From: Eledone cirrhosa
Lineage: Eukaryota
Direction of reading: 5' to 3'
Length of the DNA: 64,000 nucleotides
Assembly: GCA_964016885.1 (NCBI GenBank)
Contig: OZ024742.1
Location: 319,424,001-319,488,000 of the forward strand
Both the position numbers and the translations under genes were made by a program. Of this stretch, positions 5,309 to 56,286 are shown piece after piece. The first letter of the stretch is position 1; each line of letters starts with the position of its first letter. The notes beneath the pieces were generated by a model. It saw only the letters and a program-made list of their open reading frames with translations. It was not told where the DNA came from and searched no databases.

Positions 5309-7403
5309 CACTATTATTTAATCAGAAGTTTGAGTTTGTGGTCAGGAGTTTGATATTTCGAAATTTTCATATTTTTCAAGAAAAAACACATTCTTTTTAA
5401 ATTTATCAGTTCATATAATTAAATCAACAGAGTATATATTTATTTTATTACATAAGCTTATCAAAAGCAAACAAGTAAAAACAAATAACACTTATAAAGC
5501 AACTTATACACGTCAGAAATTACTGGATTTCCTGAATTTGCGGTTGTAGTCCAGGTCGCATTCCCACACTAGCCCCTAGATATAGTCCCCCATCATTTTT
5601 TCATTGTAGTGGCCCTGGTACCTCCGGTCTATCTTTTTCACATCTTGGTGGAATCGTTCGCCTTCTTCTTCTGAGTAGGCACCCATATTGTCCTTGAATT
5701 TTTCCAGGTGAGTGTCCAGCATATGGAGTTTAAGCGACATGGGATGCATCCCATGGCGCCAAAAGCCTTTATCAGATCCTGCACCAGTTGCTGGTAGTTT
5801 TCAGAAGCGACATGGGATGCATCCCATGGCGCCAAAAGCCTTTATCAGATCCTGCACCAGTTGCTGGTAGTTTTCAGAAGCGACATGGGATGCATCCCAT
5901 GGCGCCAAAAGCCTTTATCAGATCCTGCACCAGTTGCTGGTAGTTTTCAGAAGCGACATGGGATGCATCCCATGGCGCCAAAAGCCTTTATCAGATCCTG
6001 CACCAGTTGCTGGTAGTTTTCAGCTCTGTAGTTGCCCAGGAAGCCCTTAACAACTGCCTTGAAACAGTTCCATGCTGTTCTCTCAATCCTATTGAGCATA
6101 TTGGAGAACTCGGTAGACTCAAACACCTTTATCTGAGGTCCAACAAAAATTCCACCTTTGATTTTGGCCTCAGATAACTTGGGGAAGAACTCAAGAAGGT
6201 ATTTAAAAGCGGCTGATTCGTGGTTGAGTCTTCACAGACTGCTTCATCAACCCCAACTTAATGTGCAGTGGCGGCATGAGCACAATCCTGGGATCAACCA
6301 GTGGCTCCCACATGACGTTTCGGGTCCCAACTACAAATTCTGTTCGCTGCTCCCAGTTCTTTCTTTTGTAGTGGTCAGAGGTGGCTCTGCTGTCCCAAAG
6401 GCAGTGGAAGCATTGGAATTTGATAAAGCCTCCTTGGAGTCCAAGCAGGAAAGCCACCATCTTGAAGTCTCCAATGATTTCCCAATTGTACTGGTTGTAT
6501 TGCAGAGCTTCCAAGAGGACTTTCACACTGTAGTAATCTTCCTTCAGGCAGACGGAATGAGCTAGGGGCAGTGTCGGGAACTTGTTTCCATTGTGGAGGA
6601 GGACAGCCTTCAAACTTGTGGTGGAGCTGTCTATAAATAGCCTTGGCACCCCAATAACGTCAAACAGTCCAGACACGTCATGGCAGAAGCAGAGGCCATC
6701 CCTAAGAGTGTAAAAGCCTGAGAAAGGTTCGTCTCGACATCTCTGACTTGTCACCTGCACTTCTTCCTTGACCAAGTTCCACTGCTTCATCCTGGAGACG
6801 AATAGCTCTGCATTGAACTTGGTCAGACCCATATCCCTGACCAAGTCATTGACTTCTTTTTGGTTTGGGAAGTGAGGAACTTTTTCTGGTACCTCAGGCA
6901 GGTAATCGAAGTCCTCAGCATCCATCTCCTCCTCTTCATCAGAATACTTGTCTTGGAAAATAAATTTGATATGCAATACAAAATAAATATTGGAAAGGGA
7001 AATACATATTTAAATAATATAAAAGAACACTAATCATACTAATGGAAATTCGTGCTTAAAACACAACTTGCCCTTTATACAGTATCAATAAATCTCTTTT
7101 ATCCACTTTTTAACAATTTCATACTTTATTGCACTTTTATAATTTTCTTTAGGTATTACTCTTTATTTTATAATTTTAATTTAACCTGAAACATATATAA
7201 AAAAAATCATTTAACATAAGCAAATTAAACTTACATACATGGTAAAATCCAGCATAGAAATAATTCTCGTGAATAGCTTAGAATTTTTACAAACCCAAAC
7301 TTTTAACTGTTTAATAGCACTTTTTTTATTTATTTGGGACCTAAGCAACACAAAAAAAGTGATTACAAACCAGGAACAGAAAAACTTCTTTTGTTACACG
7401 GTG
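5309..7403 (-). mobile_element. Chapaev3-like (CMC superfamily) DNA transposon with disrupted transposase
   Basis: Transposase LFIDSS..LKAVLLHNGN, GDFKM..CFHCLWDSR, PPLHIKLGLMKQ, continuing out of frame to LKLHMLDTH..SEEEGERFHQD near 5640; ends CAC (5309) and GTG (7403). Family assigned from recalled motifs. Confidence 0.7.
5732..6023. repeat. 73-bp tandem repeat x4 inside the transposase gene
   Basis: Unit AAGCGACATGGGATGCATCCCATGGCGCC...TTTTCAG starts at 5732, 5805, 5878 and 5951. Confidence 0.95.
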
Positions 7404-18710: not shown

Positions 18711-20183
<1,473 letters not shown>

Positions 20184-22230: not shown

Positions 22231-22926
22231 TATGTGTATGTATATATATATATATAGATATGTGTATGTATATATATATATATATAGATATGTGTATGTA
22301 TATATATATATATATATAGATATGTGTATGTATATATATATATATATATATAGATATGTGTATGTATATATATATATATATATATAGATATGTGTATGTA
22401 TATATATATATATATAGATATGTGTATGTATATATATATATATATAGATATGTGTATGTATATATATATATATATATAGATATGTGTATGTATATATATA
22501 TATATATAGATATGTGTATGTATATATATATATATATAGATATGTGTATGTATATATATATATATATATATAGATATGTGTATGTATATATATATATAGA
22601 TATGTGTATGTATATATATATATAGATATGTGTATGTATATATATATATATATATAGATATGTGTATGTATATATATATATATATATATAGATATGTGTA
22701 TGTATATATATATATATATATAGATATGTGTATGTATATATATATATATATAGATATGTGTATGTATATATATATATAGATATGTGTATATATATATATA
22801 TAGATATGTGTATGTATATATATATATATATAGATATGTGTATGTATATATATATATATATAGATATGTGTATGTATATATATATATATATAGATATGTG
22901 TATGTATATATATATATAGATATGTG

Positions 22927-22962
<36 letters not shown>

Positions 22963-22968
22963 TATGTG

Positions 22969-23006
<38 letters not shown>

Positions 23007-23089
23007 GGAATACTGTTGGCTTCTTGCTACAATAATTTCTACACTTTTCATTTACACACACGTGTATATATATATATTTACATCCATAT

Positions 23090-23122
<33 letters not shown>

Positions 23123-23919
23123 TACATATATACATATACATACATACGTGTATATACATACATACACACACACATATATGTATATACATACATACATATA
23201 TATACATATATAGTTATATACATATATACATATATAGTTATATACATATATACATATATAGTTATATACATACATACATATATATACATATATAGTTATA
23301 TACATACATACATATATATACATATATAGTTATATACATACATACATATATATACATATATAGTTATATACATACATACATATATATATACATATATAGT
23401 TATATACATACATACATATATATATACATATATAGTTATATACATACATACATATATATACATATATAGTTATATACATACATACATATATATACATATA
23501 TAGTTATATACATACATACATATATATACATATATAGTTATATACATACATACATATATATACATATATAGTTATATACATACATACATATATATACATA
23601 TATAGTTATATACATACATACATATATATACATATATAGTTATATACATACATACATATATATACATATATAGTTATATACATACATACATATATATACA
23701 TATATAGTTATATACATACATACATATATATACATACATAGTTATATACATACATACATATATATACATACATAGTTATATACATACATACATATATATA
23801 CATACATAGTTATATACATACATACATATATATACATACATAGTTATATACATACATACATATATATACATACATATTTATATACATACATACATATATA
23901 TACATACATATTTATATAC

Positions 23920-23953
<34 letters not shown>

Positions 23954-23961
23954 ATACATAC

Positions 23962-24010
<49 letters not shown>

Positions 24011-24025
24011 CACATATATATACAC

Positions 24026-24072
<47 letters not shown>

Positions 24073-24396
24073 CATATACATATATACACATATATATATA
24101 TATATACACATATATATACATATACATATATACATATACACATATATATACATATACATATATACATATACATATATACATATATATATATATACACATA
24201 TATATATACACATATATATATATATACATATACATATATATACACATATATATATACACATATATTATATATATACATATATATATACATATATATATAT
24301 ACATATACATACATATATATATACATATACATACATATATATATACATATACATACATATATATATACATATATATATATATACATATATATATAC

Positions 24397-24427
<31 letters not shown>

Positions 24428-24650
24428 CACATATATATATACATATATATATATACATATATATATATACATATATACATATATACATATATATACATAT
24501 ATATACATATATATACATACATATACATATATATACATACATATATATACATATATATATATATACTATACATATATATATATATACATATATATACATA
24601 TATATACATACATATATATATATACATATATATACATACATATATATATA
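22036..24650. repeat. Compound (TA)n microsatellite/minisatellite
   Basis: GATATGTGTATG(TA)n units, then GTTATATACATACATAC units, then TA/TACA. Confidence 0.97.
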
Positions 24651-24850
24651 NNNNNNNNNNNNNNNNNNNNNNNNNNNNNNNNNNNNNNNNNNNNNNNNNN
24701 NNNNNNNNNNNNNNNNNNNNNNNNNNNNNNNNNNNNNNNNNNNNNNNNNNNNNNNNNNNNNNNNNNNNNNNNNNNNNNNNNNNNNNNNNNNNNNNNNNNN
24801 NNNNNNNNNNNNNNNNNNNNNNNNNNNNNNNNNNNNNNNNNNNNNNNNNN
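24651..24850. other. Assembly gap (200 N)
   Basis: Run of n. Confidence 1.

Positions 24851-25685
<835 letters not shown>

Positions 25686-32766: not shown

Positions 32767-32771
<5 letters not shown>
29940..32771 (-). mobile_element. CR1-type LINE ORF2 (APE endonuclease + RT), frameshifted
   Basis: NVRGL..ALTETHL, YRPP, LDLCFTN..SDHN, NYRPVSLTS, YLDFAKAFDKV, SGVPQ..LGPLLF, YADDTK, LDYCS. Confidence 0.92.
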
Positions 32772-34176
<1,405 letters not shown>

Positions 34177-35451: not shown

Positions 35452-35574
35452 TTCCCTTGCTTTTATCGAGAATCTAATTGTAATACGTGACGTATTCTAT
35501 TCTATAGCGATTAGGTCTTCAAAATGTTTATTATAAACATACAGAATATTTTCGAATATTCTATGTCTATATTC

Positions 35575-37006
<1,432 letters not shown>

Positions 37007-38651
37007 AGGGAGAAAAGAATAATGAATTGAGGATGAATAATCTAGCGTAAAAAAAAATGTATATGTTAACGAAGGATTTTACAAGGTGATATAGAGTAAG
37101 AGTAATGAGTAAACAAGTATTATAGAATGTATAATAACCTTTGAAATAAGGTAGAAAGATGGGTATATTTTTAAAAGAAGTGTATATATATGTGCCTTTG
37201 AGAAAAAGATTCTAAATTGATAAAGAATTGAATATTAGCTGTATACTTTGTGAAATGTCTTATGGAATTTATGCAAGCAGATAGAAAACAAATCTGTACG
37301 TCTATTTATTATAGAATCTAGATTAGAGATAATGGTAAATTTTTCATTTAGACAGAGATTGCAGATTTTGGATAGAGAACTGTTCAAGTATAAAGACGCA
37401 GAAGAAACCTTCCAAAAGATGCTATATTTAATGTTTTTGTCTTTCAAGGACCATATGAGTTCTGAGAGAGCCGTGTTGGTTCTTTTAAGTTTGTATTTAA
37501 AAGATGAATGATGGTTATAAAGACGAGCTTTAAAAGAGGTGGAAGTGGAGCCAAAATAGGTGAAGGAATTGATGTCAGTTATAACTTTACATTCGTAAAT
37601 TAAGTTTTTATCAAGACAATGGTTGTTGAGAGGACATTTATTTTTAATAGGGCAGTTGCAATTAGAGAGATTATTAATGAGTGACCTAGTGTTATCTATA
37701 GAAGGAATTGGATTGGAGAAGTTGTTTGCGATAGGAATAATAGTTTCTTGATTTAGAGTGGGATTATGAACATTTAGCGAAGTTGTGTTTGACGTATTTG
37801 GGTTTGTAGAAATTAGCCTAGGGTTTACAATGACGTCGGGAGTACTATTATTATGAAATTCAGTGTTGGAAGGAAGAGATTTAGTATTTTATTGTTGTGT
37901 TTAGAGATAATGTTGGAAATGTTGGAGGATGTAGAATAAGAAAATTTTATGGTGTGTTTGTTAAATATTTTACTATAGATATGTGAGGGAGGGAAGCATT
38001 TATTTAAGGCACTAAAGAATAATTTAGGAATATTGTTATTAATAGAGATGGAGAAAGGAGCATTATACCAGATTATGTTTTTGTATCTAGGTCTTTTATT
38101 AAAGTTATTGGAATGATCATGATTAATTATTCTACTGTAAGTTCTTCTAGAATTTGTTTCTTTACTATATTTGATTTTATCAGGATAGCCGGCTTTAGAA
38201 AGCGCGTTATTATAGTAATTGGCGTTAGCATCAAAGATGTTTTTATTAGAAGATAGGTTAGATATTCTTTTTCCAATATTACTAACTATAGCATTCTTGA
38301 TATATTAGTAGGGTTAGATTTAAAGTTAACATAATTTAGGTTCTCATTGTTTTTATGGTAAGGGTAATATAGGCCAGTGTCAAGATTAAGAGATACATCC
38401 AAGAAATTAGCTAGTTTGATACTGTTATCAAATTCAATTTTTAGGTTATGTTGGTTAAAGAGATTACGTATATTGTTCTTAATAATATTAAGGTTAACTA
38501 TATTGCAATTTAAGATAGTAAAGAGTCCATCGTCACGATAAATTCCACCGCGAAGTTGAGGAATTTTCCGACTCAAAGAGTTCAAAATAAAGATACCAAT
38601 TAAATCAGTCAATTGGGATGAATCGGATGCTCCCATTGTGATGTCGAATAA
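37007..38651 (-). mobile_element. Penelope-like element, 5'-truncated, probably Naiad-type (RT C-half + GIY-YIG)
   Basis: FDITMGASD..GGIYRDDGL..FLDVSL..YHK; linker CNCPIKNKCPLNNHC; LIYEC..YFGST..FKARLYNH..TALSELIW..CNLCLNEK. Clade label is tentative. Confidence 0.85.
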
Positions 38652-39024
38652 CCAGATCACTTTCAAGATCTCAACAGAGATTGCCCACAAGAAACTGGAC
38701 GAAAAAACGATCTAAACCTGAAAGCAAACCTAGGTCATTTTCCCAGATTGTTAAAAATAATGCTAACAGGAAGAAAAATAATATACAGAATACCAAAAAT
38801 AGGACAAAATACATAACGAAACCAAATATAATATCACAACCAAAAGTTCATCAAGCGAACACCAACAGGAATATAAATCCTGAACAGAGAAAAATCCATT
38901 TTTTAACGTCAGGACAACAAAAACCGGAAAAAGAAAAACTCCAGGAGTAAACATACACAAAACAGCTGTACACGTAGATCCTAAAATAATTAATTTATCT
39001 AAAAGAGATCTTGACAATGATGAA

Positions 39025-41205
39025 ATGCAAATTCTGTCAATGGGACTGAAATTCACACCGACTCCAACAGTCAACCACCAAGAACTGAAGGAGGATACCC
39101 AAGAATTCTGTCGAAAATTACGTCTTGTAGAATTCTTCGCTGATAAAAATAATGAGAGTGATGAATCACTAGTAAAGAATAAATCAAATTTCACTCCGCC
39201 AAAAGGAAGAAATATCTATCTCGACCAATACATTGACATCCTGTCTAAATTTCCTCTTAGACATAATACTAATGTTAGGCCAAACATTAACAAATCAGAA
39301 ATGTCTGCACTTAAACGTATACAAAATGATAAAACAATAATAATTAAACAAGCAGATAAAGGGGGTGCAGTTGTTATAATGGATACTGAATACTACAAGG
39401 ATTTGGTTGAGGAACAACTGAAAGACACAACATTCTATCATGAAATACCGTCAAATATAGACCACAACATCATGAAGAAGATCAACAACCTGGCTTCAAA
39501 ATACCACAACTCATTTACTGATAAGGAAAGAGACTACATCACCAATTTTGAGCCGAAACCCAGCAACCTGTATGGCCTACCGAAAGTTCATAAGTCAAAA
39601 GAAATACAACTGGCAGTAAGAGAACAAAACAGTGAGTACATTAAATTATTACACCCAAAAGACTTAAAACTTAGACCTATTATAGCTGGTCCAACATGCC
39701 CCACCCACCGTCTAAGCAATTTTGTTGACATTATTTTGAAACCACTATGTATTCACATACCCAGTTTCATCCGGGATGATATCGACTTCCTGTCCCATCT
39801 TCCCAAAACCACGGAAACGAATTCACTTCTACTCAGTTTTGATGTGGTAAGCCTTTACACCAACATTACACATGATTTAGGAATAAAGGCGGTTAAATAC
39901 TGGGTGGAAAAACATAGAGAAGTGATTCCCATTAGATTCACAGCGCCATTTATATTAGACGCAGTTAAACTTATTCTGGAAAACAACACTTTCTTCTTCA
40001 ATGGAAAGAATTACATCCAAATTAGAGGCACAGCGATGGGAACGAAGTTTGCTCCCGTTTACGCGAACTCTGTAATGGGATACTTAGAACAACAACTCTA
40101 CCAAGAAATAGAGGAAAAATATAGTACTGACTTTAGAAAGTACATTGAAAAATCTTGGAAGAGATACCTTGACGACTGTTTCATCATCGGGACAGAATCT
40201 CTAGATACTCTGTTCAATATCCTCCTGAATAACCTACACCTATCTCTCCAATTCACAAAAGAGATGAGTAGGACCAAATTACGATTCCTAGATATAATGA
40301 TAATCAAAAACGACACCACCATTACCACGGATATATATTATAAACACACAGACACCCATCAATATCTGAATTTTAAGTCGTGCCATCCACCTCATACAAA
40401 ACGCAACATCCCATACTGCCTAGCCAGAAGAATTTGTACCATTGTAGAAGATACGAATACCAGGTACAAACACCTCACAGAACTAAGAGAATTTTTGCTC
40501 AAACAAAACTACCCATCTCTACTTATGGAAAATGGCATACAGCGGGCTATAAAAATACCTATACAACAACTTAGAACAACCCAAGGAAGAAGAAACCAAG
40601 AACTGGTCATACCATTTATAATGACACACAACCCATGTCACCAGAATATCTTCAACACTGCCAAAGCAAACTTACCGATCATTGCTCAAAGTAATGAATT
40701 AAAAGGCTTAATCACAGATCGATCTTTGACTCTTAGTAAAAGACAGCCAAAAAATTTGAAGCAATTACTAACAAAAGCAAAGTTTGACCTTAACAACAAA
40801 GACCAATCATTCACTGTATCTAAATGTAATGATAGTCGATGCGGCACATGACAATCCATACACGCCGGTCAATATATGAAAACAAAAACTGGAAAAATAT
40901 TCCCAAATGCAAATATGAACTGCAAAAGCAGAAATCTAATTTACTGCATTAAATGCCCGAATTGTGAAGAACTATATGTCGGTCAAACTGGAAATGCACT
41001 ATCGGAACGTGCACGGGTACACCATCAACAAATCAGAGACCCAAATGTCCTTCAGATACCCCTAAGCGGCCACCTGGCAACATGTGGTCAGGGAATATTT
41101 ATAATATTCCCATTCTACAAATTACACAGCCCAAGTGAAATCAAGAGAAAAATCAAAGAAAAGAATTTTATTGATAAATTCAAACCCAAGCTAAACGAAC
41201 AATAA
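39025..41205 (+). pseudogene. Penelope RT-GIY-YIG ORF interrupted by an in-frame TGA at 40849-40851
   Basis: ORFs 39025-40851 and 40876-41205 share one frame with no other stop between them. Confidence 0.85.
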
Positions 41206-42753: not shown

Positions 42754-44317
42754 GTTAGAATATGTGTAATAAGGCCAAGACAATGCAGATATGGACATAG
42801 AAAAAGAATGCAATAGTGAGAGATATTGATGAGAATTCGTCTTTCACCTTGAATTTATTTAAATGTCCTTAATTTTCGAGATAATATCTCTTCTTCGGAG
42901 GGAAGTAAAAGTCTCAGACCAGCGTCTAAATTTCCAATGAAGCCATGCTGACCGGAAATAGTATAGAGTTCTAACTTTAATATCAAAGAATTAAAATTAG
43001 GTGGGTAAAGAGTAGTCTCCCTTTAAGAGGGGTTTGTTTATGTTTTTGTTGTGTTTTTTAAATTTTATATGCGTGCCTGTATATGTGTGTGGGAGAAAGC
43101 ATGAAGGTGTAGGTATGTGTGTGTGTGAGTGTGGGAAGATAGGTCTAATCGTAAAAGTGGGGGGTAGGTGTTATCTGGTGTTAGAACTGGTTTTGTGTGT
43201 GTATGTGTGAGAGAGAATAAGTGGAGGTGTGTGCGTGCGTGTGTGTGGGGTGTGTAAAGTGGGGCTAGAGGCCCTATCAGGTTATAAATTGGGTGTTGAG
43301 CTCTAGTCTATTATTGATTGGTGGATGTGTTCTATCTATAATGAGTGCTTCCTTGATTCTAAGATTACCGAGGTTTCTTTCTTTAGTTTCTATCCTAACT
43401 GTTATGTTTTTATCAGTGTTTTTGCATTTAACTAGGTGTTTCTTAAATGAGGAAGCGTTAGTATTGAGGTGTTCTTTTATTCTTATGTGGAGTGGTCTGG
43501 TGGTGCTACCTACGTAGAAGTTGTTGCATTTGTCACACTCTAGTCTGTAAACTACGTAAGCCTGGTGGCATAGGTCTGTGTCGTTGATGGGGCAGTTGGC
43601 TAGTCTGCAGCAGTTGTCATGTCTGGTGGAGTGTCTCTTAGCTAGCCGTCCACGCAAAGAAGGACCCGAATGGGCCAGTTGAATATCCAGACCTTCTCGT
43701 CTGATGGCTCTGCGGATGGCTGTTGTTGTTTCTTCACTGAAGTGTGGGAGCTTCAGGAAGCAAGTGTTAGTGCCTCGGGTGTGGTGTCCTCTGTTCTTTC
43801 TGGCACGGTTTGTGGTGGATGTCGTGTATCCGTTCAGTTTGAGTACTTCCAGGAAATGTGTGGTGTGTGTGTCTCGGTCTCTGGCGTCGGTGCATTTGTT
43901 CTTGATACGTGCCAGTTCGTTCTTTATGTATCCGAACTTGGCACCGAGTGGGAGGGCCGATCTGAAATGTACGAACAGGTCCCTGCTGGCGGATTTTTTA
44001 TAGAAGCAGGTGTGGATGTTGCCTTCCTCTGTTACCCTGAGTTGGAAGTCCAGCAGGGATAGGGATCCGCGGTCATCGGGGTGTTCTATGCTGAACTTTA
44101 TACTGGTGTCCGTGCTGGAGAATGTTGTGTATATTTTCTCTGCCTCTTCACGGGATGATGTAAGGATGAGTATGTCATCTACATATCGGGTGAAGAAGGC
44201 ATGGGAATGGCAGGTGTTGAGGGCTCGGCATTCTAGCTGGTTCATGTAAGTGATGGCCAGCAGGCCAGAGAGGCTGGATCCCATGGGTAATCCTGTTGTC
44301 TGTCTGTATGTGTGACA
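42750..44317 (-). mobile_element. Penelope-like element, 5'-truncated, Penelope/Poseidon-type (RT C-half + GIY-YIG)
   Basis: YRQTTGLPMGSSLS, RYVDD, LLD, VVYRLECDKC..YVGSTTR..RIKEH, EALII..P.IN; stop at 43277. Clade label is tentative. Confidence 0.9.
42866..42903 (-). ncRNA. Degenerate hammerhead-like motif at the Penelope 3' end
   Basis: Reverse complement TCCCT CCGAAGA A GAGAT-ATT-ATCTC GAAA AT TA AGGA; CCGA core variant, weak stem I. Confidence 0.45.
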
Positions 44318-46272
44318 ACAGCTGTCGTCTTTCATGCGCATCACGTGACCGTACCAACGTAGCCTTCTCTCGAGTAAACAACATCTGATCCCTCTTATTT
44401 CTAATTTTTTCCTTAGTTCGTTTATGCTTTGCCGTTCACGTATATTACTATTGCACATCCAGCGGAGCATGCAAGCTTCGTTCCTCTCTAGTCTGCGTAT
44501 ATCCTCTGCACACAATGCCCAGGTCTCACTGCCATGCAGCATTGCTGTTCGTATGCAGGCATCGTATAACCTGCCTTTCATTTTTAGGGAGAACCCTCTA
44601 GCGGCTAATAGTGGTATAAGCTCTCTGAACTTTTTCCATCCAGTTCTGACTCTAGCTACTGTACTTTCAGAGCACCCTCCCCCACTGCTGATTTTGTCAC
44701 GCAGGTAACGGAAGCTGTCCACTATTTCTATAGAACCCTCTGCGCAGTTGAAGGAGCTAGTATTTTGTGGGCACTTGCTGCTACTTATTGCACCAGAGCA
44801 CCGGCCACATGTAAAATCTATGTTCTTAGTTAGCTTACCTGTGATCCCACTACATCTTTTATGCACCCATACTTTGCATTTGGGACATAAAATGGAGTTT
44901 CTACCTACGCCTTTCCTACACACTGTGAGCATGGCCATTTCCCAGATGGGACTGCCGCCTTATTTTCTTTCCTACAAACTAGAACTTTAGTCTTAGCCAG
45001 GTTAATTTTAAGGCCTTTTGATTCTAGGCTGTGCTTCCATGTTTGGAATTTCTTCTCTAGTTCGGTCATTGATTCAGCTATGAGCGTTAGATCATCTGCG
45101 TATAGGAGTTCCCATGGGCAGCCGGTCTTGAACTCCTCTGTTATAGCCTGAAGGGCAATAATAAATAGTAGGGGGCTAAGAACAGAGCCCTGATGGACAC
45201 CAACTTTTACGCTAAACTCTTCACTATATTCGTTGTTAATTCTAACCTTACTGACTGTTTCTTTATACATGGCTTGTATAGCTCTCACAAGCCATTCGTC
45301 AACACCTAGTTTTCTAAGAGACCACCAGATAATGGAACGGGGGACTCTGTCGAAGGCTTTCTCCAAGTCGACGAAAGCTAAGTATAGGGGTTTACTTTTA
45401 GCTAGGTACTTCTCCTGTAGTTGTCGTACAATGAAAAGAGCGTCTGTGGTACTTTTGCCTGACACAAATCCGAACTGCATTTCATCTAGATCAATTCTCT
45501 CTCTGATTAGTTGCGCTATTACTTTTTCCGTGACCTTCATGACCTGGTCGATTAATTTAATGCCTCTATAGTTACTCCTATCTAGGGCATCTCCTTTTCC
45601 CTTATAGCAGTTAACGATGATGCTGCTACGCCAGTCCTTCGGAACAACCCCATTCTGTACGACTTGGTTAACTATCCGGGTGACCATGGTGTGTCCCACC
45701 GAACCAGATGCCTTCAGCATCTCAGCAACTATTTCCGAAGGACCAGCCGCCTTACCCGTCTTCATATCTTTGATTGCCTTGCTTATTGTACTACCCTGGA
45801 CTAACACTGCTGGTCCCTCTATTGGGTCGATGTGGGGGAGACTGTCTTTCTCCCATTTGTTCTCCTCATTTAGAAGCCTTTCGTAGTGACACTTCCAAGC
45901 TACCTTCTTATCAGCGTCGGTGATGGCAAGTATGCCATCATCGTTAAGTACACACTTCTCCCCGACAATATCACGGTTTTCCTTGACACATTGCCTGGCA
46001 ATCCTGAACACTTCACGTTTTTGGTCCTCACGTTGTAGAACATGCTTGAACTTTCTTTCCTCTGCTTCCCTTCTTGCGAAGTACACTTGTCTCCTAGCTT
46101 CCCTCCTGGCCACTTGATAGTCTTCTCTACTTCCCCCATCCCGCCATGCTTTCCAAGCCTGCTTTTTGGCCTTAATTGACTCCTCCACCTTACTGTTCCA
46201 CCACCATGTTACTCTCCTCCTACCTACAGGCCTGCTCCAGCCACAGACTTCGTCTGCCACCGTCAGCAGGTT
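44318..46272 (-). mobile_element. RTE LINE fragment (RT + PHD-like), truncated at both ends
   Basis: ORF 44905-46329 with full RT motifs; 2-nt insertion near 44925; ends at MKDDSC where the Penelope sequence begins. Confidence 0.94.
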
Positions 46273-48803: not shown

Positions 48804-51049
48804 GCCTCTGACTCTCACCTGTATATGTTTATTTTGCAGATACTCTTTCTAATTTTTTATTTTTTATTTCCTTGAGCCATCAATTCCTGATGAAATTGCA
48901 GGTACACTGTCATGACATACATGTCTTGGATATCCAAATTTAGTATTGTCCATGCCTTTTCCAGACCTTTCAAAAAGCCAATATCTTCTTGAGAGAAAAG
49001 AGGAAGAGAGAGGAGGTGAAATAAAATAACCCCAGTGCTGGACTGGAACTTCATTTATCCACTCTGAAAGAATAAAAGACAAAATTGACGTCTGCAGCAT
49101 TTTGAGTCCAGAGTGCAGAGAACTGGAACAAATACCACAAGTTATTTTATTCACTGCTTTAGTGACACTGCTAATTCACTGCCCTAGTTCTTAATTAGGA
49201 TTTATTCAAGAGCAGCCAACTGTAGAAAGATATGTCTGTATTTACAGAACAATAATACATCATGGAAAAATAGATATTAATTTGAAACTTTGTATATTTG
49301 GTGAAGAAGGAATGTTGTATTTGAAAGTTACTTAAAAATCATTAATTTCACTTGGATCACACCCAACATTATTAATTTCTTTTTTTAAGATATATACACA
49401 CAATTTTATTAATACTGTGTATGTGTGTGGCATTCACTCTCACTGCAGCCCCCATCTGAACACTGTAGTTTATTTCCAATTTATTCTATAAGTGCATGGT
49501 ATTGATTGTAAAATTATCATCAATAACATGAGTTGATAGGTAGTTTTGTAAATTTAGCAACTCTACTTTTGTGTCACATTGGCTCCTGCCAAATGATTTT
49601 GGTGCAAAATGCTAAATGAACAATTGTCTGTGTATCCTTAGGTCTATTTGCTGTTATGAATATTTTATTAATGAAATGATGTAAACTTCTATTTTCACGG
49701 AGATGCAATGTCTTTCTGAATAGTTTCATTAGAGAGCTAGATGCTAAACGGGTGAAAAATATTTAATAATTATTTACATCATTGAATTGTTGGCAATTTT
49801 CTATGGCAGAGTTAGCTATAGAAGGAAAGAAAGAAAAAAGTAAATGACATTAATCATTGCAAGATGCTGCACAGTGGATTGTTATAACTTGCAGTAGATT
49901 GTACCCAGACATTAACCAATGAGGGCGTTGCCAAATTCTTACACAAATTCTGAATTTCTTACTTTTGCTAACTTTATCTTGGAACTTTTATTTATAGCTG
50001 TAAGCACTGACAAGTTGGCATCAGATTTATACTGAAATTACTTGGTCATTATATAATTTATCATGCATAGTAATATTGTTGTTGTTTTGCCCTGGGTCTG
50101 CTTTGATTGGGCAGACCTATGATCAGCTGTAACCATCCCATCTTTTTTTTTTGTGTGTGTATGTGTATACAGTGTATCCAACACTACATTGTCTAATGTC
50201 TTTTTTTATAAGATAGTAAGGGTGTGATTTGAAGGGGATTTGACTTATATTTTTAGCAGGTTGAATGACTAATTTAGGTTACCTTGTTGGCTCAACTAGT
50301 ACCATAGTTTGTGTGCATGCAAAAAAGGCCAAACAGAAATCTAATTGAACTTATTTAACTTTCTGCATCATCAAAGTGTAACCAGAAAATATTTTAAAGA
50401 AAATGAAGCAGATTTTTTTACCAACACTATGCGTACTTTAAAAATTTGGAATGGACCAAAATCTGAATATTGGTGAGTTTTTAAATTTTCAAAAAATGCA
50501 TGCTATAGATAGGACAGCATGTTTGACTGAATTTTACTTTAAAAAAACAAAACAAAAGAAAACACTCAATGGTAAGTTAGCTTATAACTGAGGTCAATGT
50601 TTCGCCGATTTTCACCAAAATTTTGCATAAATAAGGTGCTAAAATATTTTTGCTTTGGAAGTGAATATTATACCAGTTTCACTTTCTACATGAAATTCAT
50701 TTTTGATGTGTTTTGAATAAATATGGCCTTCAAAGCAGTCAGATATTGGTAAAGAAAAATAATTATGTAATGGAGTTATGAAACAAAAACTATACTCTAA
50801 ATGACATTTAAAATATCAAAATATTCTCCTCTCATGAGAATTCCAAAACAATACTTTCTTGGCTTATACATGGGTTTTAGATTTTTACCCATTTCTCAGA
50901 CATAGAATGGGGAGCGAGGAGACCTATATTTGAGTATATATGCTAAGTGCCAGATTAGAAAAAAATAAATACTGGGTCGAAATGATTGACTATGATTGAC
51001 TATGCTTTAATCTGTTATTTTAATAAATATATATATATATATATATATA

Positions 51050-51992
51050 TTGATGACCGTGGATGACCGGATAAGCCTTCAGTCAGACCTACTGGCTGTT
51101 ACCCAATGGGCAGAAAAGAACAACATGTTACTGAACGAAGACAAATTCGAACTGATCCACTTTGGAAAAGAGGATGCTCTGAAACTCCCGTACTCCCTTC
51201 CCTCCGGGGAAACTCTCGTGGCATCTAACAACATCAGAGACTTGGGAGTAACCGTGGACAGCAACATAAGCTGGACGACGCATATAAGCAGCAAAGTTGA
51301 CATGGCCCGCAGAATGTGTTCCTGGATCCTCAGAACCTTCCAGTCGAGAGATTCCCGCACCATTATCCTTCTCTTCTCTACTTTCGCCCGACCACACCTT
51401 GAATACTGTTGTCCACTGTGGTCTCCCCACACGAAACAAAGTATCATGAAACTTGAAGCTCCTCAAAGGGCAATCACGAAAAAGATAGATGGCATGTCAG
51501 ACCTTGACTACTGGGGTCGATTGGAAAACCTGAAACTTTACTCACTCCAACGTCGCCGTGAGCGTTATATTATCTGCATGATGTGGAAAATGTTCCATCA
51601 TCACTGCCCAAATGATGTTGGCATCGCCTTCAAGATACACCCAAGGCTTGGGCCCCGTGCTATCCGTCCCATTCAAAAATCTAAATCGCAACTCATAACA
51701 ACAATACGGCACAATTATTTCACCTCAATCGGCCCTGCTCTCTTCAACATCACACCAGGACACGTCAAAACAGAAACTGACCACACAAAATTCAAGAAGT
51801 CTTTGGACAAATTCCTCCAAGTAATCCCGGACAAACCACCCACACCCGGATATGTCTCCGCAAACAGTAATTCTCTTCTCGAATGGGCCATGGTGCCCAA
51901 ATCCTGAATTGAAAGACTTCGCCAGGTGGTGCTATTAAGTTAGACATGGCCTGGGCCAATACTGGCCAAAACATTTCAAAGTTATTCAAAGT

Positions 51993-51995
<3 letters not shown>
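51050..51995 (+). mobile_element. CR1-type LINE 3' fragment bounded by (TA)n
   Basis: LQSDL..W...N.M..N.DK, RDLGV, RPHLEYCCPLWSP, LYSLQRRRER; 285 codons open. Confidence 0.9.
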
Positions 51996-52039
<44 letters not shown>

Positions 52040-52040
<1 letters not shown>

Positions 52041-52240
52041 GGAGATCTCTCTGCACTTGTCACATGGTACCATGGGCCCAGCACTATGTGTTAATAATTG
52101 TCACAAGTGTAGTGTTTGTACCAGAGTTTTCAAGTCGCTGGCTGGACTAAAAAGTCACATTCGTTCAGCGCATCGGTGGGGGTTCTCCTACACGCATATA
52201 AAGTAGTGGCCGTACTCGAAAACGAGTTGGCAGCCACCAT
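52040..52240 (+). mobile_element. LINE 3'-end fragment with C-terminal C2H2 finger
   Basis: HKCSVCTRVFKSLAGLKSHIRSAH between two (TA)n tracts, resembling C-termini of RTE/BovB-like ORFs. Confidence 0.55.
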
Positions 52241-52666
52241 ATATATATATATATGTAATTGTATGTGTATATATGTGTATGTATGTATAATTATTATATA
52301 TATGTATGTATATGTGTGTGAGTGTATGTATTTATTTAATTATATATATATATATGTATGTCTATGCGTAAATATATGTGTATTGCTTACCACGTGTGTT
52401 TGTTTATTTATTTGTGTCCGTTCCTGTATAGCTGTCAACGTTATAATAATTTTTATTATTTTTTATTTTCTGAAGTCGTATATTTTTTATTTTGATGTGC
52501 CGGCCTTTTGCTTTATTTTTTATTATTATTTTCTTATAATTAATTGTGTACGTGCGTATGTAGGTGTGTGTACATATATCTATATATATGTGTGCGTGCG
52601 TATGTATGCGTGTATATATGTGTGTATGTACGTGTGTATATATGTATGACTGTATGTATGTGTGTG

Positions 52667-52745
<79 letters not shown>

Positions 52746-52831
52746 GTTCTATTTAAATTGTTGAGATACAACAAGCAAATATTTTTATAACTGATATAAA
52801 GCACTCAACAAATTATTGGAGTAAAAATACG

Positions 52832-53279
52832 ATATATTAACAAATGGAAACTATATTTATAAAACCATATTTGTTTCATTATACATATTTCAGGGACACC
52901 AAGTCGAGTTATGGTGCGCTTTCATCAGATAAAATATGATGTAGATCGGTTTTATAAATAAGTATTGACGTACCCTTGAGGAATGCGACCATTTCTGTTG
53001 GAGGCTCCCGGATGGTGGGGTTGTTAAATTTGTTTAGTCTATTATGCAAATTAGTGTCGGATATACTAATTTGCATAATAGACTGGATAAATTTGGTAAC
53101 CCCACTATCCGGGAGCTTCCGACAGAAATGGTTGCATTCTTTAGGGGTGTGTCAATGTTTATTTATGAAACTGATCTGTATTATGTTTTATCTGATGAAG
53201 GCGCTCCATAGTTTGACTTGGTGTCCTTGAAATATGTATAATGAGGTAGGTATGGTTTTATAAATATAGTTTCCATTTG

Positions 53280-53288
<9 letters not shown>
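52832..53288 (+). other. Long fold-back element: 226-bp arms, 5-nt loop, G.U-rich
   Basis: Arms pair without indels around 53060; about 34 G.T pairs, one T.T, no A.C; lies in a ~540-bp island between two (TA)n tracts. Confidence 0.93.
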
Positions 53289-53350
<62 letters not shown>

Positions 53351-53433
53351 GTGTGTGTGTTTGTGTATTTATGTGTATGTATGGATATGTGTGTGTATAT
53401 ATACATATATATATTTATATGTATGTGTGTATA

Positions 53434-53505
<72 letters not shown>

Positions 53506-53576
53506 AGATCAAAAGAGTTCCAAGTACTTATCCGATATTTGCATTACTTTATTGTGCTACAATATAACTCACCTGC

Positions 53577-53641
<65 letters not shown>

Positions 53642-53747
53642 AATTAAAATACTAGAGTGCGTTGGAGTAAAACATACTCGTCATATTATAGAAATGACAG
53701 TATAGGATATAGCTCAATGTAATACAACAGAGCCGAAAAATTATAAA

Positions 53748-53768
<21 letters not shown>

Positions 53769-53783
<15 letters not shown>

Positions 53784-54131
53784 GCATCTCTAACAAAACG
53801 CACCCCCACCCCATCCACACCGCCCCTTTCAATGGAAAGTTATGTTGGTGCCACAACATCCAGGCCGAAACAAATGAGATCGTGTAGGTGTCATGACAAA
53901 AAAAAAACACAGTCCACGCTGTAATGTGGCCGTGTAGGCAACACGGTAAAAACCCTCCCAGTCCCACACTGTAAATGTGGTTGGTGTTAGGAAGGGCATC
54001 CAGCTGTAGAAAACCCGCCAGACAGTCCTATGCGAGCAAGACAACCACTCTTGCCTCAAGTGGGAAAACTCCCGTCCAAACCCATGCAAGCGTGGAACAT
54101 GGACGTTAAACGATGATGATGATGATGATGA

Positions 54132-54135
<4 letters not shown>
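53769..54135 (+). mobile_element. RTE LINE 3' UTR fragment with (GAT)n tail
   Basis: Similar to 29522-29878. Confidence 0.9.
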
Positions 54136-54168
<33 letters not shown>

Positions 54169-54471
54169 GTGTGTGTGTGTGTGTGTGTATGTATATATGT
54201 GTGTGTATATATGTATATATGGATGTGTGTGTGTGTATGTATATATGTGTGTGTATATATGTATATATGGATGTGTGTGTGTGTATATCTATATATACAT
54301 ACACATACATACATATACACATGCACACACATATATAATCATGATGCTATATAGCACAAGGAAAAATTTGATATATTCATTCACCACAAAAAACACTATT
54401 TTGGTACCTATATCTACCACCAACACTATATTAATTCACATCTAAATACACTGCTGGTTATATATTATTAT

Positions 54472-54660
54472 TGGATTGGCAGTACCGGTAGAGGGTCGGA
54501 CGCCATGCTTTGACGCATAGAGTTACGGCCCTTGCCATTCTGAGTTCAAATCCCGCCGAGGTTAACTTTGCCTTTCATCCTTACGGGGTCGATAAAATAA
54601 AGTACCAGTAATGCACTGGGTAATTGCTGGCCTTGTGCCAAAAGTAGAAACAATTATTAT

Positions 54661-54663
<3 letters not shown>
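54472..54663 (+). mobile_element. tRNA-derived SINE
   Basis: TGGCAGTACCGGTAG (A-box-like), GAGTTCAAATCC (B box), central GCCTTTCATCCTTACGGGGTCGATAAAATAAAGTACCAG, (ATT)n tail; second copy at 60680-60870. Confidence 0.85.
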
Positions 54664-54710
<47 letters not shown>

Positions 54711-55153
54711 GTATTGTAGTCAAATTAAAAAACAAACACATTTACATTTTTTTTTTTACTGTAGTATCTATATCTATGTGTGTGTATATATTTGTGAATG
54801 TTACTAATTGTATTTTAGTTCCTTAAGAGTATTCATGACCTCTGATTTTGTGCGCATAGCTTCAAGATTTGTGTTTTTGTGGAGTGTGTGGGTGAAAACA
54901 GGTATAGCAGATACTAAATAGCTGTTGCGCAATACAGTTAAATTGTCACTGTGACCCAATACAATACCAAGCAAGCTGTAGGATTTCCTGCTATACTACT
55001 GAAATAGATTTTGTTTGTTTGTTTTTCGTTATGGATAGACAAATAATGCATAATAAAATACAGTGCTGTTGGTTAGAGTAGGTTGCTCTCTTTTACTTTA
55101 GGCTTTGTGTTGAGTGGGTAAAATACATACTATTCTCTATGGAGTCAATTTAA

Positions 55154-55391
55154 CCCCTTTGTTACCATATTTCTAATGGAAGACACTGCCTATAATTTTC
55201 AAACGATTTTGAAAATAATCAAGAATTGTGAGGGATTTAGTAATATAACTAATTCTCTTATTACTAAGCTGGTGTTTGGAATAAAACTTAAAAGTTCTTA
55301 ATTAAATTTATGATGGAAGTTTTTTTTAGATAAATAGAAACACTTAAAAATAAATAGTTTTGTATCATAGAATCAGAGGTGGTTAAAGGGG
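55154..55391. mobile_element. piggyBac-type MITE
   Basis: TTAA|CCCCTTT ... AAAGGGG|TTAA; related fragments near 57270, 57725 and 60510. Confidence 0.7.
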
Positions 55392-55550
55392 TTAAAAAAA
55401 ATAAAGGTCTTATTCTCTCTTACAGGCTCTGTGAGTGAAATACAGTGCTATTGGCTAGTTTTAGGTTGCAGTCTCACTTTAAGCTTTGTGATAGAAGCAA
55501 ACAAAAAAACTTACATACTTTTTATTTTTTTCAGTTAATTTAACTCTTTT

Positions 55551-56286
55551 GAAGCTTGCATGCTCCGCTGGATGTGTAACAGTAATATACGTGAACGGCA
55601 AAGCATAAACGAACTAAGGAAAAAATTAGAGATAAGAGGGATCAGATGTTGTTTACTCGAGAGAAGGCTACGTTGGTATGGACACGTGATGCGCATGAAA
55701 GTCGATAGCTGTATAACAAAGTGCAGGGCAATAAAGATAGACGGTAGTCACGGAATAGGCAGACCTAGAAAAACCTGGGACGAGCTGATAAACTCCGACA
55801 TCACACACTTACACCTCTCCAAGACAATGTCACTGGACCGAGACCTTTGGCGGTACTCAGTAACAGAGAAGACCCGCCTTACCTAAATATATAGTAAAAC
55901 CTACTCCAGCCAGTAGGCATCTCTAACAAAATACACCCCGTCCCACCACCACCACCCCCACCCGATCCACACCACCCCGTTCTATGTAAAGTTATGTTGG
56001 TGCCGCGCCATCGAGGCCGAAACAAATGAGATCGTGTAGGTGTCACGACAAAAAAACACACAGTCCACGCTGTAATGTGGCCGTGTAGGCAACACGGTAA
56101 AAACCTCCCAGACCCACACTGTAAATGTGGTTGGTGTTAGGAAGGGCATCCAACTGTAGAAAACCTGCCAGACAGTCCTATGCGAGCAAGACAATCACTC
56201 TTGCCTCAAGTGGGACTACCCCCGTCCAAACCCATGCAAGCGTGGAACACGGACGTTAAACGTTGATGATGATGATGATGATGATG
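55551..56286 (+). mobile_element. RTE LINE 3' fragment inserted into a second MITE copy
   Basis: Nearly identical to 29160-29878; the flanks rejoin as TTAACTCTTTT|GTTACCATATTTCT. Confidence 0.92.

What the first reader, a model, noticed from the sequence alone, without database searches (positions are those of the whole stretch)
52832..53288. 226-bp hairpin whose arm differences are almost all G.U on one strand, with an ADAR-like neighbour bias
Seen: the arms pair with no indel around a 5-nt loop (53058-53062). By hand I count about 34 G.T pairs, one T.T and no A.C on the + strand, with wobble Gs on both arms. Neutral transitions in DNA should give G.T and A.C about equally. No wobble G has a Watson-Crick-paired G on its 5' side, and in G runs the wobble G is the 5'-most. 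Established: ADAR edits A in long dsRNA, avoids a 5' G and favours a 3' G, and coleoid cephalopods edit heavily. Inference, three options: (a) a hyper-edited hairpin RNA was reverse-transcribed back into the genome; (b) a long hairpin RNA gene (hpRNA/endo-siRNA-like) selected to keep pairing; (c) a fold-back mobile element that moves via a single-stranded intermediate and targets (TA)n. It has no ORF and no match elsewhere in the window.
Basis: partly seen in the sequence, partly recalled or inferred. Interest (0 to 1): 0.85.

Follow-up and report, generated by a model that had tools for sequence, protein, structure and literature searches.

The report
RNA editing fossilised in the genome
This hairpin lies in a 2.1-kb copy of a nearby stretch and differs from it by 30 one-strand A-to-G changes, most likely because the RNA-editing enzyme ADAR rewrote the transcript before a retrotransposon likely copied it back into the genome, and more than a dozen other places in this genome carry the same mark.

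Summary
In detail: 226 pairs, 34 G.T, 1 T.T, 0 A.C. The hairpin is an ordinary inverted Penelope-like insertion with hammerhead motifs; the wobbles are what is unusual.

Window 52034-54139 copies a donor 14.9 kb downstream, just outside the window. In the hairpin all 30 differences are donor A to window G on the + strand. Outside it there is one clear substitution in about 1.6 kb. The edits avoid a 5' G (0/20) and favour a 3' G (8/17), the ADAR signature. The copy is 5'-truncated, ends at a LINE (GAT)n tail and sits in (TA)n, as retrotransposition would leave it.

It is not a one-off. I found 14 more loci with such one-strand clusters, including three copies of a second unedited source whose edits sit in its stems (39/103 vs 4/510). 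Sister copies differ in a TA/TG microsatellite at 49 sites, all A/G.

Best reading: ADAR-hyper-edited RNA written back into inherited DNA by LINE reverse transcriptase. No DNA or RNA reads could be checked. The hairpin-RNA-gene and fold-back-transposon options are not supported.

The parts
52034..54139 (+). Whole copied segment (inferred retrocopy) of the donor at G000:C3:319490947-319492998 (L018/L002), same strand, 14.9 kb downstream; the ends include 4-5 nt of TA microhomology
52832..53057 (-). Left arm: 5'-truncated 3' end of a Penelope-like element, inverted; carries 15 A>G changes on the + strand
53058..53062 (.). 5-nt loop at the inversion junction
53063..53288 (+). Right arm: 5'-truncated 3' end of the same Penelope-like element; carries 15 A>G changes
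52742..52831 (-). One-sided terminal extension of the Penelope-like insertion; unpaired and unedited
   Evidence: one side only in 13 of 14 hairpin loci, both sides in 0
53184..53248 (+). Minimal type I hammerhead motif in the right arm; sequestered in the long duplex when the + strand folds
52872..52936 (-). Mirror hammerhead motif in the left arm
53780..54135 (+). 3' end of a LINE (RTE-like; label recalled) ending in (GAT)8 where the donor has (GAT)10; the inferred priming end of the copy
52034..52238 (+). 3' end of a second LINE family, cut at its 5' side in the window copy but continuing upstream in the donor and in a third copy
51993..52033 (.). (TA)n tract upstream of the copy, following the 3' end of an unrelated LINE; half of the inferred target site
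54136..54166 (.). (TA)n tract downstream of the (GAT)n tail, absent from the donor; other half of the inferred target site

Best explanation
The segment 52034-54139 is a copy of a donor 14.9 kb downstream whose hairpin carries 30 one-strand A-to-G changes, likely made by ADAR on the folded transcript, which a LINE reverse transcriptase then likely wrote back into a (TA)n tract of inherited DNA. Step 1 (shown): a Penelope-like element left a head-to-head inverted insertion at the donor. Step 2 (inferred): the donor was transcribed on the + strand and folded into a 226-bp duplex. Step 3 (inferred from spectrum, confinement and neighbours): ADAR deaminated 30 of 157 stem adenosines. Step 4 (inferred from the junctions): an RTE-like LINE protein primed at the (GAT)n tail of the LINE fragment further down the same RNA, read inosine as G, ran through the hairpin and stopped at a TA microhomology. 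Step 5 (inferred from presence in the assembly): the insertion is inherited. The hairpin itself has no function that the data require; it is a record of editing.
For: All 30 differences in the hairpin are donor A to window G. Outside it there is 1 clear substitution (C>T at 53999) and one A/G-G/A pair at a slipped (GT)n tract, among 525 A. A is the commonest base in family copies at 30 of 30 sites (2072 A, 31 G, 8 other). 5' G 0/20 edited (p=0.015), 3' G 8/17 (p=0.005), AAG 5/6; the same bias is described for ultra-edited RNA (PMC3197674 passages). The 52 other family alignments are balanced: A>G 55, T>C 68, C>T 56, G>A 60. Direction is shown independently: the donor continues 5' in the same LINE fragment, the copy is cut. 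The copy's 3' end falls in the (GAT)n tail, and 4 other tails of related LINE copies in the 144-kb region also abut (TA)n. An ADAR2-like deaminase domain is in the genome. Repeats of the process: 10 of 30 loci fetched with an edited bait are hyper-edited LINE 3' ends, 17-85 A>G each against 0-10 T>C, pooled 504/1194 A, 5' G 16% vs 58% for 5' A or T, p=3e-23. A second unedited source (L176) has three edited copies on other contigs, with 39/103 stem A vs 4/510 non-stem A changed. Two more edited small hairpins and two antisense-edited LINE pieces were found.
Against: The copy landed only 14.9 kb from its donor, which random retrotransposition in 3.0 Gb would do with probability about 1e-5; the three copies of the second source are dispersed, so this is unexplained. 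No target-site duplication can be read inside (TA)n. The basal 38 bp (0 of 27 A, p=0.002) and apical 21 bp (0 of 15 A, p=0.035) of the stem are unedited. Four pure (TA)n tracts of 24-72 nt in the same copy, which could self-pair as RNA, are unedited. Transcription and editing of the donor were not observed. The 10 sense-strand cases were found with sense-edited baits, so their strand is partly by construction, and an antisense test also found 2 cases.
Confidence: 0.85

Rival explanations
1. The same ADAR-edited RNA, but written in by RNA-templated repair of a break in a nearby (TA)n tract (nascent transcript as template, TA microhomology at both ends) rather than by LINE target-primed reverse transcription.
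For: The insertion is 14.9 kb from the donor, there is 4-5 nt of TA microhomology at both junctions, and no readable target-site duplication.
Against: The 3' end falls exactly in the LINE (GAT)n tail, with a shorter tail than the donor, although many TA-rich ends were available. Most edited LINE copies also end at this tail, and three copies of another source are dispersed across contigs.
Confidence: 0.09
2. Assembly or sequencing artefact, for example edited RNA reads used in polishing, or base-calling error on hairpins.
For: No read-level check was possible.
Against: The donor and 12 other hairpins of the same family in this assembly are unedited. The copy has its own junctions and no gap. 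Fourteen other loci on several contigs show the same signature, some with insertion junctions and differing edit sets from one source.
Confidence: 0.03
3. DNA-level hypermutation: C>T on the - strand of the donor, a single-strand DNA deaminase during fold-back transposition, or TpA-directed mutation of duplex DNA.
For: 14 of 30 edits have a 5' T; TpA-directed mutation on both strands is noted in other genomes of this scan (unchecked notes).
Against: The family base is A, so the window is the derived copy. 13 of 30 edits have a 5' A. There are no T>C changes on the + strand, so the process is one-stranded. Changes stop at the ends of the intramolecular duplex.
Confidence: 0.02
4. A long hairpin RNA gene (hpRNA / endo-siRNA-like) in which selection kept G.U pairs and removed A.C.
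For: All new mismatches preserve pairing on the + strand.
Against: The flanks are almost identical to the donor, so there was no time for 30 substitutions plus selection (30/451 vs about 1/1600, p=2e-19). All are A>G and none C>T, though both would give G.U. Both AAG test sites are G in 1 of 841 family copies.
Confidence: 0.01

Closest known systems
ADAR A-to-G hyperediting recorded in avian retroviruses (RAV-1, Felder 1994; avian leukosis virus, Hajjar and Linial 1995; seen only as cited in PMC8586724, passages)
   Same: Clustered A>G from ADAR on an RNA that is then reverse-transcribed into DNA.
   Different: Here the substrate is a host read-through transcript with a Penelope-derived hairpin, the copier is inferred to be a non-LTR LINE acting in trans, the product sits in an animal reference assembly, and the unedited donor lies beside it.
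APOBEC 'DNA-edited' LTR retroelements fixed in vertebrate genomes (PMC4866542, passages)
   Same: A deaminase burst during retrotransposition preserved as a hypermutated genomic copy, detected by comparing source and copy.
   Different: That is G>A on the sense strand made on cDNA. That screen covered LTR elements (DNA transposons as control), called other mismatch clusters negligible and found 19 invertebrate genomes empty. Here it is A>G, confined to RNA duplexes, in non-LTR copies.
Hyper-edited / ultra-edited RNAs in inverted repeats (PMC3197674, passages)
   Same: Dense A>G in long duplexes, deficit of 5' G and excess of 3' G.
   Different: Those are transient RNA-versus-DNA differences; these are DNA-versus-DNA differences between genomic copies.
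Penelope-like element inverted pLTR insertions with minimal hammerheads (PMC8557442 passages; PMC4209133 first quarter of text)
   Same: 5'-truncated inverted copy, tail on one end only, (TA)n targeting, minimal hammerhead, parent with RT and C-terminal GIY-YIG.
   Different: The one-sided tail is about 90 nt here rather than 30-40. The wobble pairs are not a property of the family.
Processed retrocopy mobilised through an embedded retroelement 3' end (PMC5199112, listing and start of abstract only, for Alu in 3' UTRs; LINE flank transduction from my own knowledge)
   Same: An embedded retroelement end lets upstream host RNA be copied by LINE machinery.
   Different: The cargo is non-coding repeat sequence, priming is at a (GAT)n tail, and the RNA was hyper-edited first.

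Membership tests
ADAR hyper-edited cluster | Changes are A>G on one strand only | tested here: met
   30 of 30; family base A at 30 of 30
ADAR hyper-edited cluster | Confined to a long duplex | tested here: met
   30/157 stem A vs no clear case among 525 outside; second source 39/103 vs 4/510
ADAR hyper-edited cluster | 5' G avoided, 3' G favoured | tested here: met
   0/20 and 8/17; pooled LINE copies 38/245 and 121/226
ADAR hyper-edited cluster | ADAR gene in the genome | tested here: met
   PF02137 hits at four loci; one matches human ADAR2 at E 3e-102; double-stranded RNA-binding domains not checked
ADAR hyper-edited cluster | Editing seen in RNA of the donor | not testable with these tools
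   no RNA holder listed
LINE target-primed retrocopy | 3' end at the element's tail | tested here: met
   ends in (GAT)8 of the LINE 3' piece
LINE target-primed retrocopy | 5' truncation relative to the donor | tested here: met
   donor continues in the same fragment, copy is cut at a TA microhomology
LINE target-primed retrocopy | Target-site duplication | tested here: inconclusive
   both flanks are (TA)n
LINE target-primed retrocopy | Young autonomous family able to supply reverse transcriptase | tested here: inconclusive
   tail family joins an RVT_1 ORF, many copies are 98-99% identical and 22,511 match one motif; no intact full-length copy was examined; 'RTE' is a recalled label
Penelope-like element inverted insertion | Parent encodes RT followed by GIY-YIG endonuclease | tested here: met
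   upstream of the arm family in several loci: RT with YRDD (RVT_1 E 1.6e-4, below cut-off) and GIY-YIG (E 0.009, below cut-off)
Penelope-like element inverted insertion | Inverted truncated copies with a tail on one end, in (TA)n | tested here: met
   13 of 14 hairpin loci have the tail on one side, 0 on both; flanks
Penelope-like element inverted insertion | Minimal hammerhead motif | tested here: met
   core conserved; 95.8% of cells paired, 6 of 20 pairs with two-sided change, 0/500 shuffles on covariation, 19 related rows that I chose; no Rfam hammerhead hit
Penelope-like element inverted insertion | Hammerhead self-cleavage | not testable with these tools
   needs an assay
hpRNA / endo-siRNA hairpin gene | G.U pairs accumulated under selection and conserved | tested here: not met
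   arose in one very recent copy; 1 of 841
hpRNA / endo-siRNA hairpin gene | Phased 21-22-nt small RNAs | not testable with these tools
   no small-RNA data
MITE / fold-back DNA transposon | Terminal inverted repeats of a DNA-transposase parent | tested here: not met
   the arm is the 3' end of a Penelope-like retroelement; most copies are single arms

The most novel reading that the evidence does not exclude
ADAR editing plus LINE reverse transcription is a standing mutational route into this animal's inherited DNA, and it also rewrites self-pairing (UA)n RNA into TG-interrupted tracts, making it a real source of the genome's abundant one-strand (TA/TG)n compound microsatellites. For: two sister copies differ in a gap-free 450-nt tract at 49 sites, all A/G, against 2 of 548 in the adjacent unpaired LINE piece. 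TG share rises from source to copy (50/238 to 96/250, p=3e-5; 53/190 to 80/220, 95/220 and 81/229, p=0.07, 0.001 and 0.11). Tracts next to edited copies have TG on the edited strand in 17 of 19 cases against 4 of 12 next to unedited copies (p=0.002; 14 of 15 after dropping two sister copies). Against: short (TA)n tracts in the window copy are unedited, one LINE family makes regular (ATGT)n tails by itself, source-to-copy tract alignments also show G>A, and edited LINE copies are rare (at least 10 among some 22,500).
Probability: 0.35. Interest if true: 0.88.

Novelty: new variant of a known kind. Interest (0 to 1): 0.76.

Why it matters
A-to-I editing is usually treated as a transient change to RNA. 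Here the edited molecule and its unedited source sit 15 kb apart in one assembly, so the path from RNA editing to inherited DNA change can be read base by base. Each such copy is a single-molecule record of ADAR activity in cells that pass DNA on, which is hard to measure directly. It gives a simple genome-only screen (A>G-collapsed self-alignment) for how often editing feeds back into genomes, an ADAR counterpart to the known APOBEC scars. It also shows that a LINE reverse transcriptase likely reads through a 226-bp inosine-containing duplex. If the microsatellite reading holds, it offers a mechanism for one-strand TA/TG tracts. Practically, such copies would be mis-called as editing sites or mis-dated as old repeats. 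The rate is low, so the effect on genome composition outside microsatellites is small.

Tried and rejected
Public runs: no run held more than 6% of the edited hairpin's sampled words and no RNA holder was listed; this is no evidence either way. No reads were laid, so the read-level check is open.

Rfam on 50000-56000 gave only sub-threshold miRNA-type hairpin hits and no hammerhead. A whole-window inverted-repeat scan was swamped by microsatellites.

Other hyper-edited copies in the window's own Penelope family: two motif searches found only the window copy (denominator 841), and an edited-arm DNA search gave unedited copies. These tests have limited power.

A scan of 126 inverted-repeat alignments in sequence fetched up to then flagged several G.T/A.C-skewed pairs. 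Six alignments at five loci that I inspected were microsatellite effects; the window's long TA tracts were not printed and L070 repeats L054.

Tails of the second LINE family: 36 of 38 fetched copies were scored; TG 888 vs CA 188, TG-dominant in 21 of 24. I reject this as proof of editing because many tails are regular (ATGT)n.

The antisense motif search was meant as a strand control expected to be empty. It gave 2 hits with T>C clusters (13 in 229 bp; 7 in 155 bp), so it does not show strict sense-strand restriction.

The edits of copy C403 are nested in those of C13 (16 of 16), so those two may not be independent events; C22 and C13 differ both ways (4 and 9). No nearby donor with shared flanks was seen for the other edited LINE copies examined within about 13-28 kb (both outputs partly cut). 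The first coding exon of the actin gene was not found with a recalled motif, so no host transcription unit was identified.

Literature: ten full-text searches listed no paper describing ADAR-edited non-LTR retrocopies fixed in a nuclear genome. Passages of PMC3983040, PMC8897444, PMC2724483 and PMC5974252 held nothing relevant; a term search in PMC5199112 gave no hits.

Full report
1. Observation. The stem about 53060 has 226 pairs: 191 Watson-Crick, 34 G.T (17 per arm), 1 T.T, 0 A.C, with no indel. The + strand folds as one rod (-337 kcal/mol, z -40). No wobble G has a Watson-Crick G 5' of it.

2. What the hairpin is. The window is G000:C3:319424001-319488000 in a 3.0-Gb assembly. The arm is a repeat: 3533 candidates, 841 exact matches to one degenerate 35-base motif. 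Following longer copies upstream leads to reading frames with an RT (YRDD motif; RVT_1 E 1.6e-4) followed by a GIY-YIG-type endonuclease (E 0.009); both are under Pfam's cut-off. The arm holds a minimal hammerhead whose helix II covaries across 19 chosen copies (95.8% paired, 6 pairs with two-sided change, 0/500 shuffles; related sequences, so not a probability). Head-to-head copies in (TA)n are common and carry a ~90-nt extension on one side only (13 of 14 loci, both sides in none). Inverted truncated copies, a one-sided tail and (TA)n targeting are described for Penelope-like elements (PMC8557442, passages), and minimal hammerheads, including pairs on opposite strands, in PMC4209133 (first quarter of the text). 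So the hairpin's shape is ordinary Penelope-like insertion anatomy.

3. Where the wobbles come from. A second copy lies 14.9 kb downstream, just outside the window. Window 52034-54139 aligns with it end to end. Inside the hairpin there are 30 differences, all donor A to window G on the + strand. Outside there is one clear substitution (53999), one G/A-A/G pair at a slipped (GT)n tract, and microsatellite length changes; 14 further mismatches in the printed alignment lie past the end of homology. The donor stem has only 4 G.T and the T.T. In family copies A is the commonest base at all 30 sites, and 52 other family alignments show balanced transitions. So the window is the derived copy and the polarity is A>G. 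Of 157 stem adenosines 30 are changed: 0 of 20 after G, 8 of 17 before G, 5 of 6 in AAG. This is the bias reported for ultra-edited RNA (PMC3197674, passages). The genome has adenosine-deaminase-domain genes at four loci, one matching human ADAR2 at E 3e-102.

4. How it got into DNA. The donor continues 5' within a LINE fragment that a third copy also holds, whereas the window copy is cut there at a 5-nt TA microhomology and abuts (TA)n. The 3' end falls in the (GAT)n tail of a different LINE 3' piece (8 units against 10 in the donor), followed by (TA)n not present in the donor. That tail family joins an RVT_1 reading frame; I call it RTE-like from memory. The tail makes the + strand the RNA strand, which is the strand showing A>G. 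A 5'-truncated copy ending at a LINE tail inside a microsatellite is what target-primed reverse transcription leaves (established knowledge). These steps are inferred: no RNA was seen and no target-site duplication can be read. One substitution in about 1.6 kb makes the event very recent. Unexplained: the landing site is 14.9 kb from the donor (about 1e-5 by chance), and the basal 38 bp and apical 21 bp of the stem are unedited. Hyperedited RNAs are reported to be retained in the nucleus (PMC9148063, one passage), which could favour capture near the source; that is a suggestion only.

5. It is a process. A motif with both AAG sites set to G in the LINE 3' end gave 3 hits among 22,511 copies, each with further A>G. 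With one of them as bait, 10 of the 30 loci fetched were hyper-edited: A>G 75, 71, 29, 41, 59, 85, 77, 32, 18 and 17, against T>C 0-10. Nineteen had 1-5 A>G and one did not align. Pooled, 504 of 1194 A are changed, 16% after G against 58% after A or T (p=3e-23) and 54% before G. Nine of the ten alignments run to a (GAT)n tail, nearly all inside TA/TG tracts. Three of them (C403, C13, C22) derive from one composite source, found unedited at C3:374565589-374567604. Against that source, 39 of 103 adenosines in two short stems but 4 of 510 outside are changed, and the LINE piece has 17, 41 and 32 A>G with one other change each. Inverted partners for that piece lie 4.0 and 8.7 kb upstream. These copies end at the second LINE family, so two LINE families appear to do it. 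A second hairpin family gave 2 more edited copies beside the bait among 25 loci (12 wobbles on one strand against 0 and 2). An antisense motif gave 2 more (13 T>C in 229 bp; 7 in 155 bp, the weaker case). The total is the window plus 14 loci, a lower bound, with three sharing a source and two of those possibly serial. The baits select for these cases, so the counts are not rates. This recurrence, with distinct junctions and edit sets, is my main argument against an artefact; reads were not checked.

6. Microsatellites. Sister copies C403 and C13 share a gap-free 450-nt TA/TG tract and differ at 49 sites, all A/G, against 2 of 548 in the adjacent unpaired piece. TG share is higher in copies than in the source for internal tracts, and tracts beside edited copies have TG on the edited strand in 17 of 19 cases against 4 of 12 beside unedited copies. 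(UA)n is self-complementary, so ADAR could edit it. Against: the window copy's four pure (TA)n tracts of 24-72 nt are unchanged, the second LINE makes (ATGT)n tails unaided, and source-to-copy tract alignments are ambiguous and include G>A. Long tracts are strongly one-sided in general (64 tracts, median 99%), which fits but does not prove the idea. I hold it as the novel case at 0.35.

7. Comparison with what is known. It works like ADAR hypermutation fixed in avian retroviral DNA (two 1990s reports, seen only as cited in PMC8586724, passages) and like APOBEC scars in endogenous LTR elements (PMC4866542, passages). That screen covered LTR elements, called other mismatch clusters negligible and found none in 19 invertebrates; its supplementary note on invertebrates was not read and may bear on this. 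Ten full-text searches listed no description of ADAR-edited non-LTR retrocopies fixed in a nuclear genome; the library lacks most subscription journals. Unchecked notes from this scan report the same signature in L1, LINE and provirus copies of other genomes. They are leads, not support, but they suggest the phenomenon is general rather than peculiar to this animal. The host is not identified.

8. Verdict. Real, and explained with good confidence (0.85) as an ADAR-hyper-edited transcript written back into the genome, most likely by LINE machinery. A new variant of a known kind, with an unusually clean source-copy pair, evidence of recurrence, and a testable extension to microsatellite origin. 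Interest 0.76.

Noticed in passing
window 18711-19778 (-): Large actin coding exon (Pfam Actin E 6e-133); the first coding exon was not found in the 144-kb region and may lie in the 200-N gap at 24651-24850.
   Followed up: partly
window 22231-23004, 23085-24650, 24852-25685, 32770-34173, 35574-37007: Long TA tracts with one-sided interruptions (TG/CA: 74/0, 2/194, 92/0, 104/0, 141/2).
   Followed up: partly
L176 (C3:374565589-374567604) with L099, L091, L095: A composite source retrocopied at least three times to other contigs, each copy with its own A>G set; the C22 copy has a rearranged 5' part with a duplicated and inverted insert.
   Followed up: yes
L088 (C1:71323787-71324103): Extreme case: 75 of 95 A changed to G with one other difference; an inverted same-family copy lies about 560 bp upstream.
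   Followed up: partly
L198 (C1:284011309-284014343): Antisense-edited LINE piece; neighbouring short hairpin and TA tracts on one side also look T>C-shifted (tract 2-353: CA 66, TG 0).
   Followed up: partly
L199 (C8:34959321-34962355): An edited LINE fragment directly inverted against an unedited 99% copy; only one arm is edited.
   Followed up: no
donor, positions equivalent to window 53086 and 53121: The donor itself has 2 A>G relative to the family in its right arm: earlier edits or ordinary mutations.
   Followed up: no
window 37235-38711 (-), 38884-40851 (+), 43277-44959 (+); L018 1420-2560 (+): Further Penelope-like reading frames; the last lies about 400 bp upstream of the donor on the transcribed strand and could supply read-through transcription.
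   Followed up: no
L171-L173 (C1:136463560, 136474100, 136484632): Three copies of the second LINE 3' end about 10.5 kb apart with the same downstream flank, suggesting a tandem array.
   Followed up: no
window 6203-7009 (-): 268-aa frame that looks like a decayed transposase-type protein (recalled resemblance, not scanned).
   Followed up: no
L073/L074 (C6:13644405-13646174): ADAR2-like deaminase domain encoded in two large exons; three other deaminase-domain loci on C1 and C25.
   Followed up: partly
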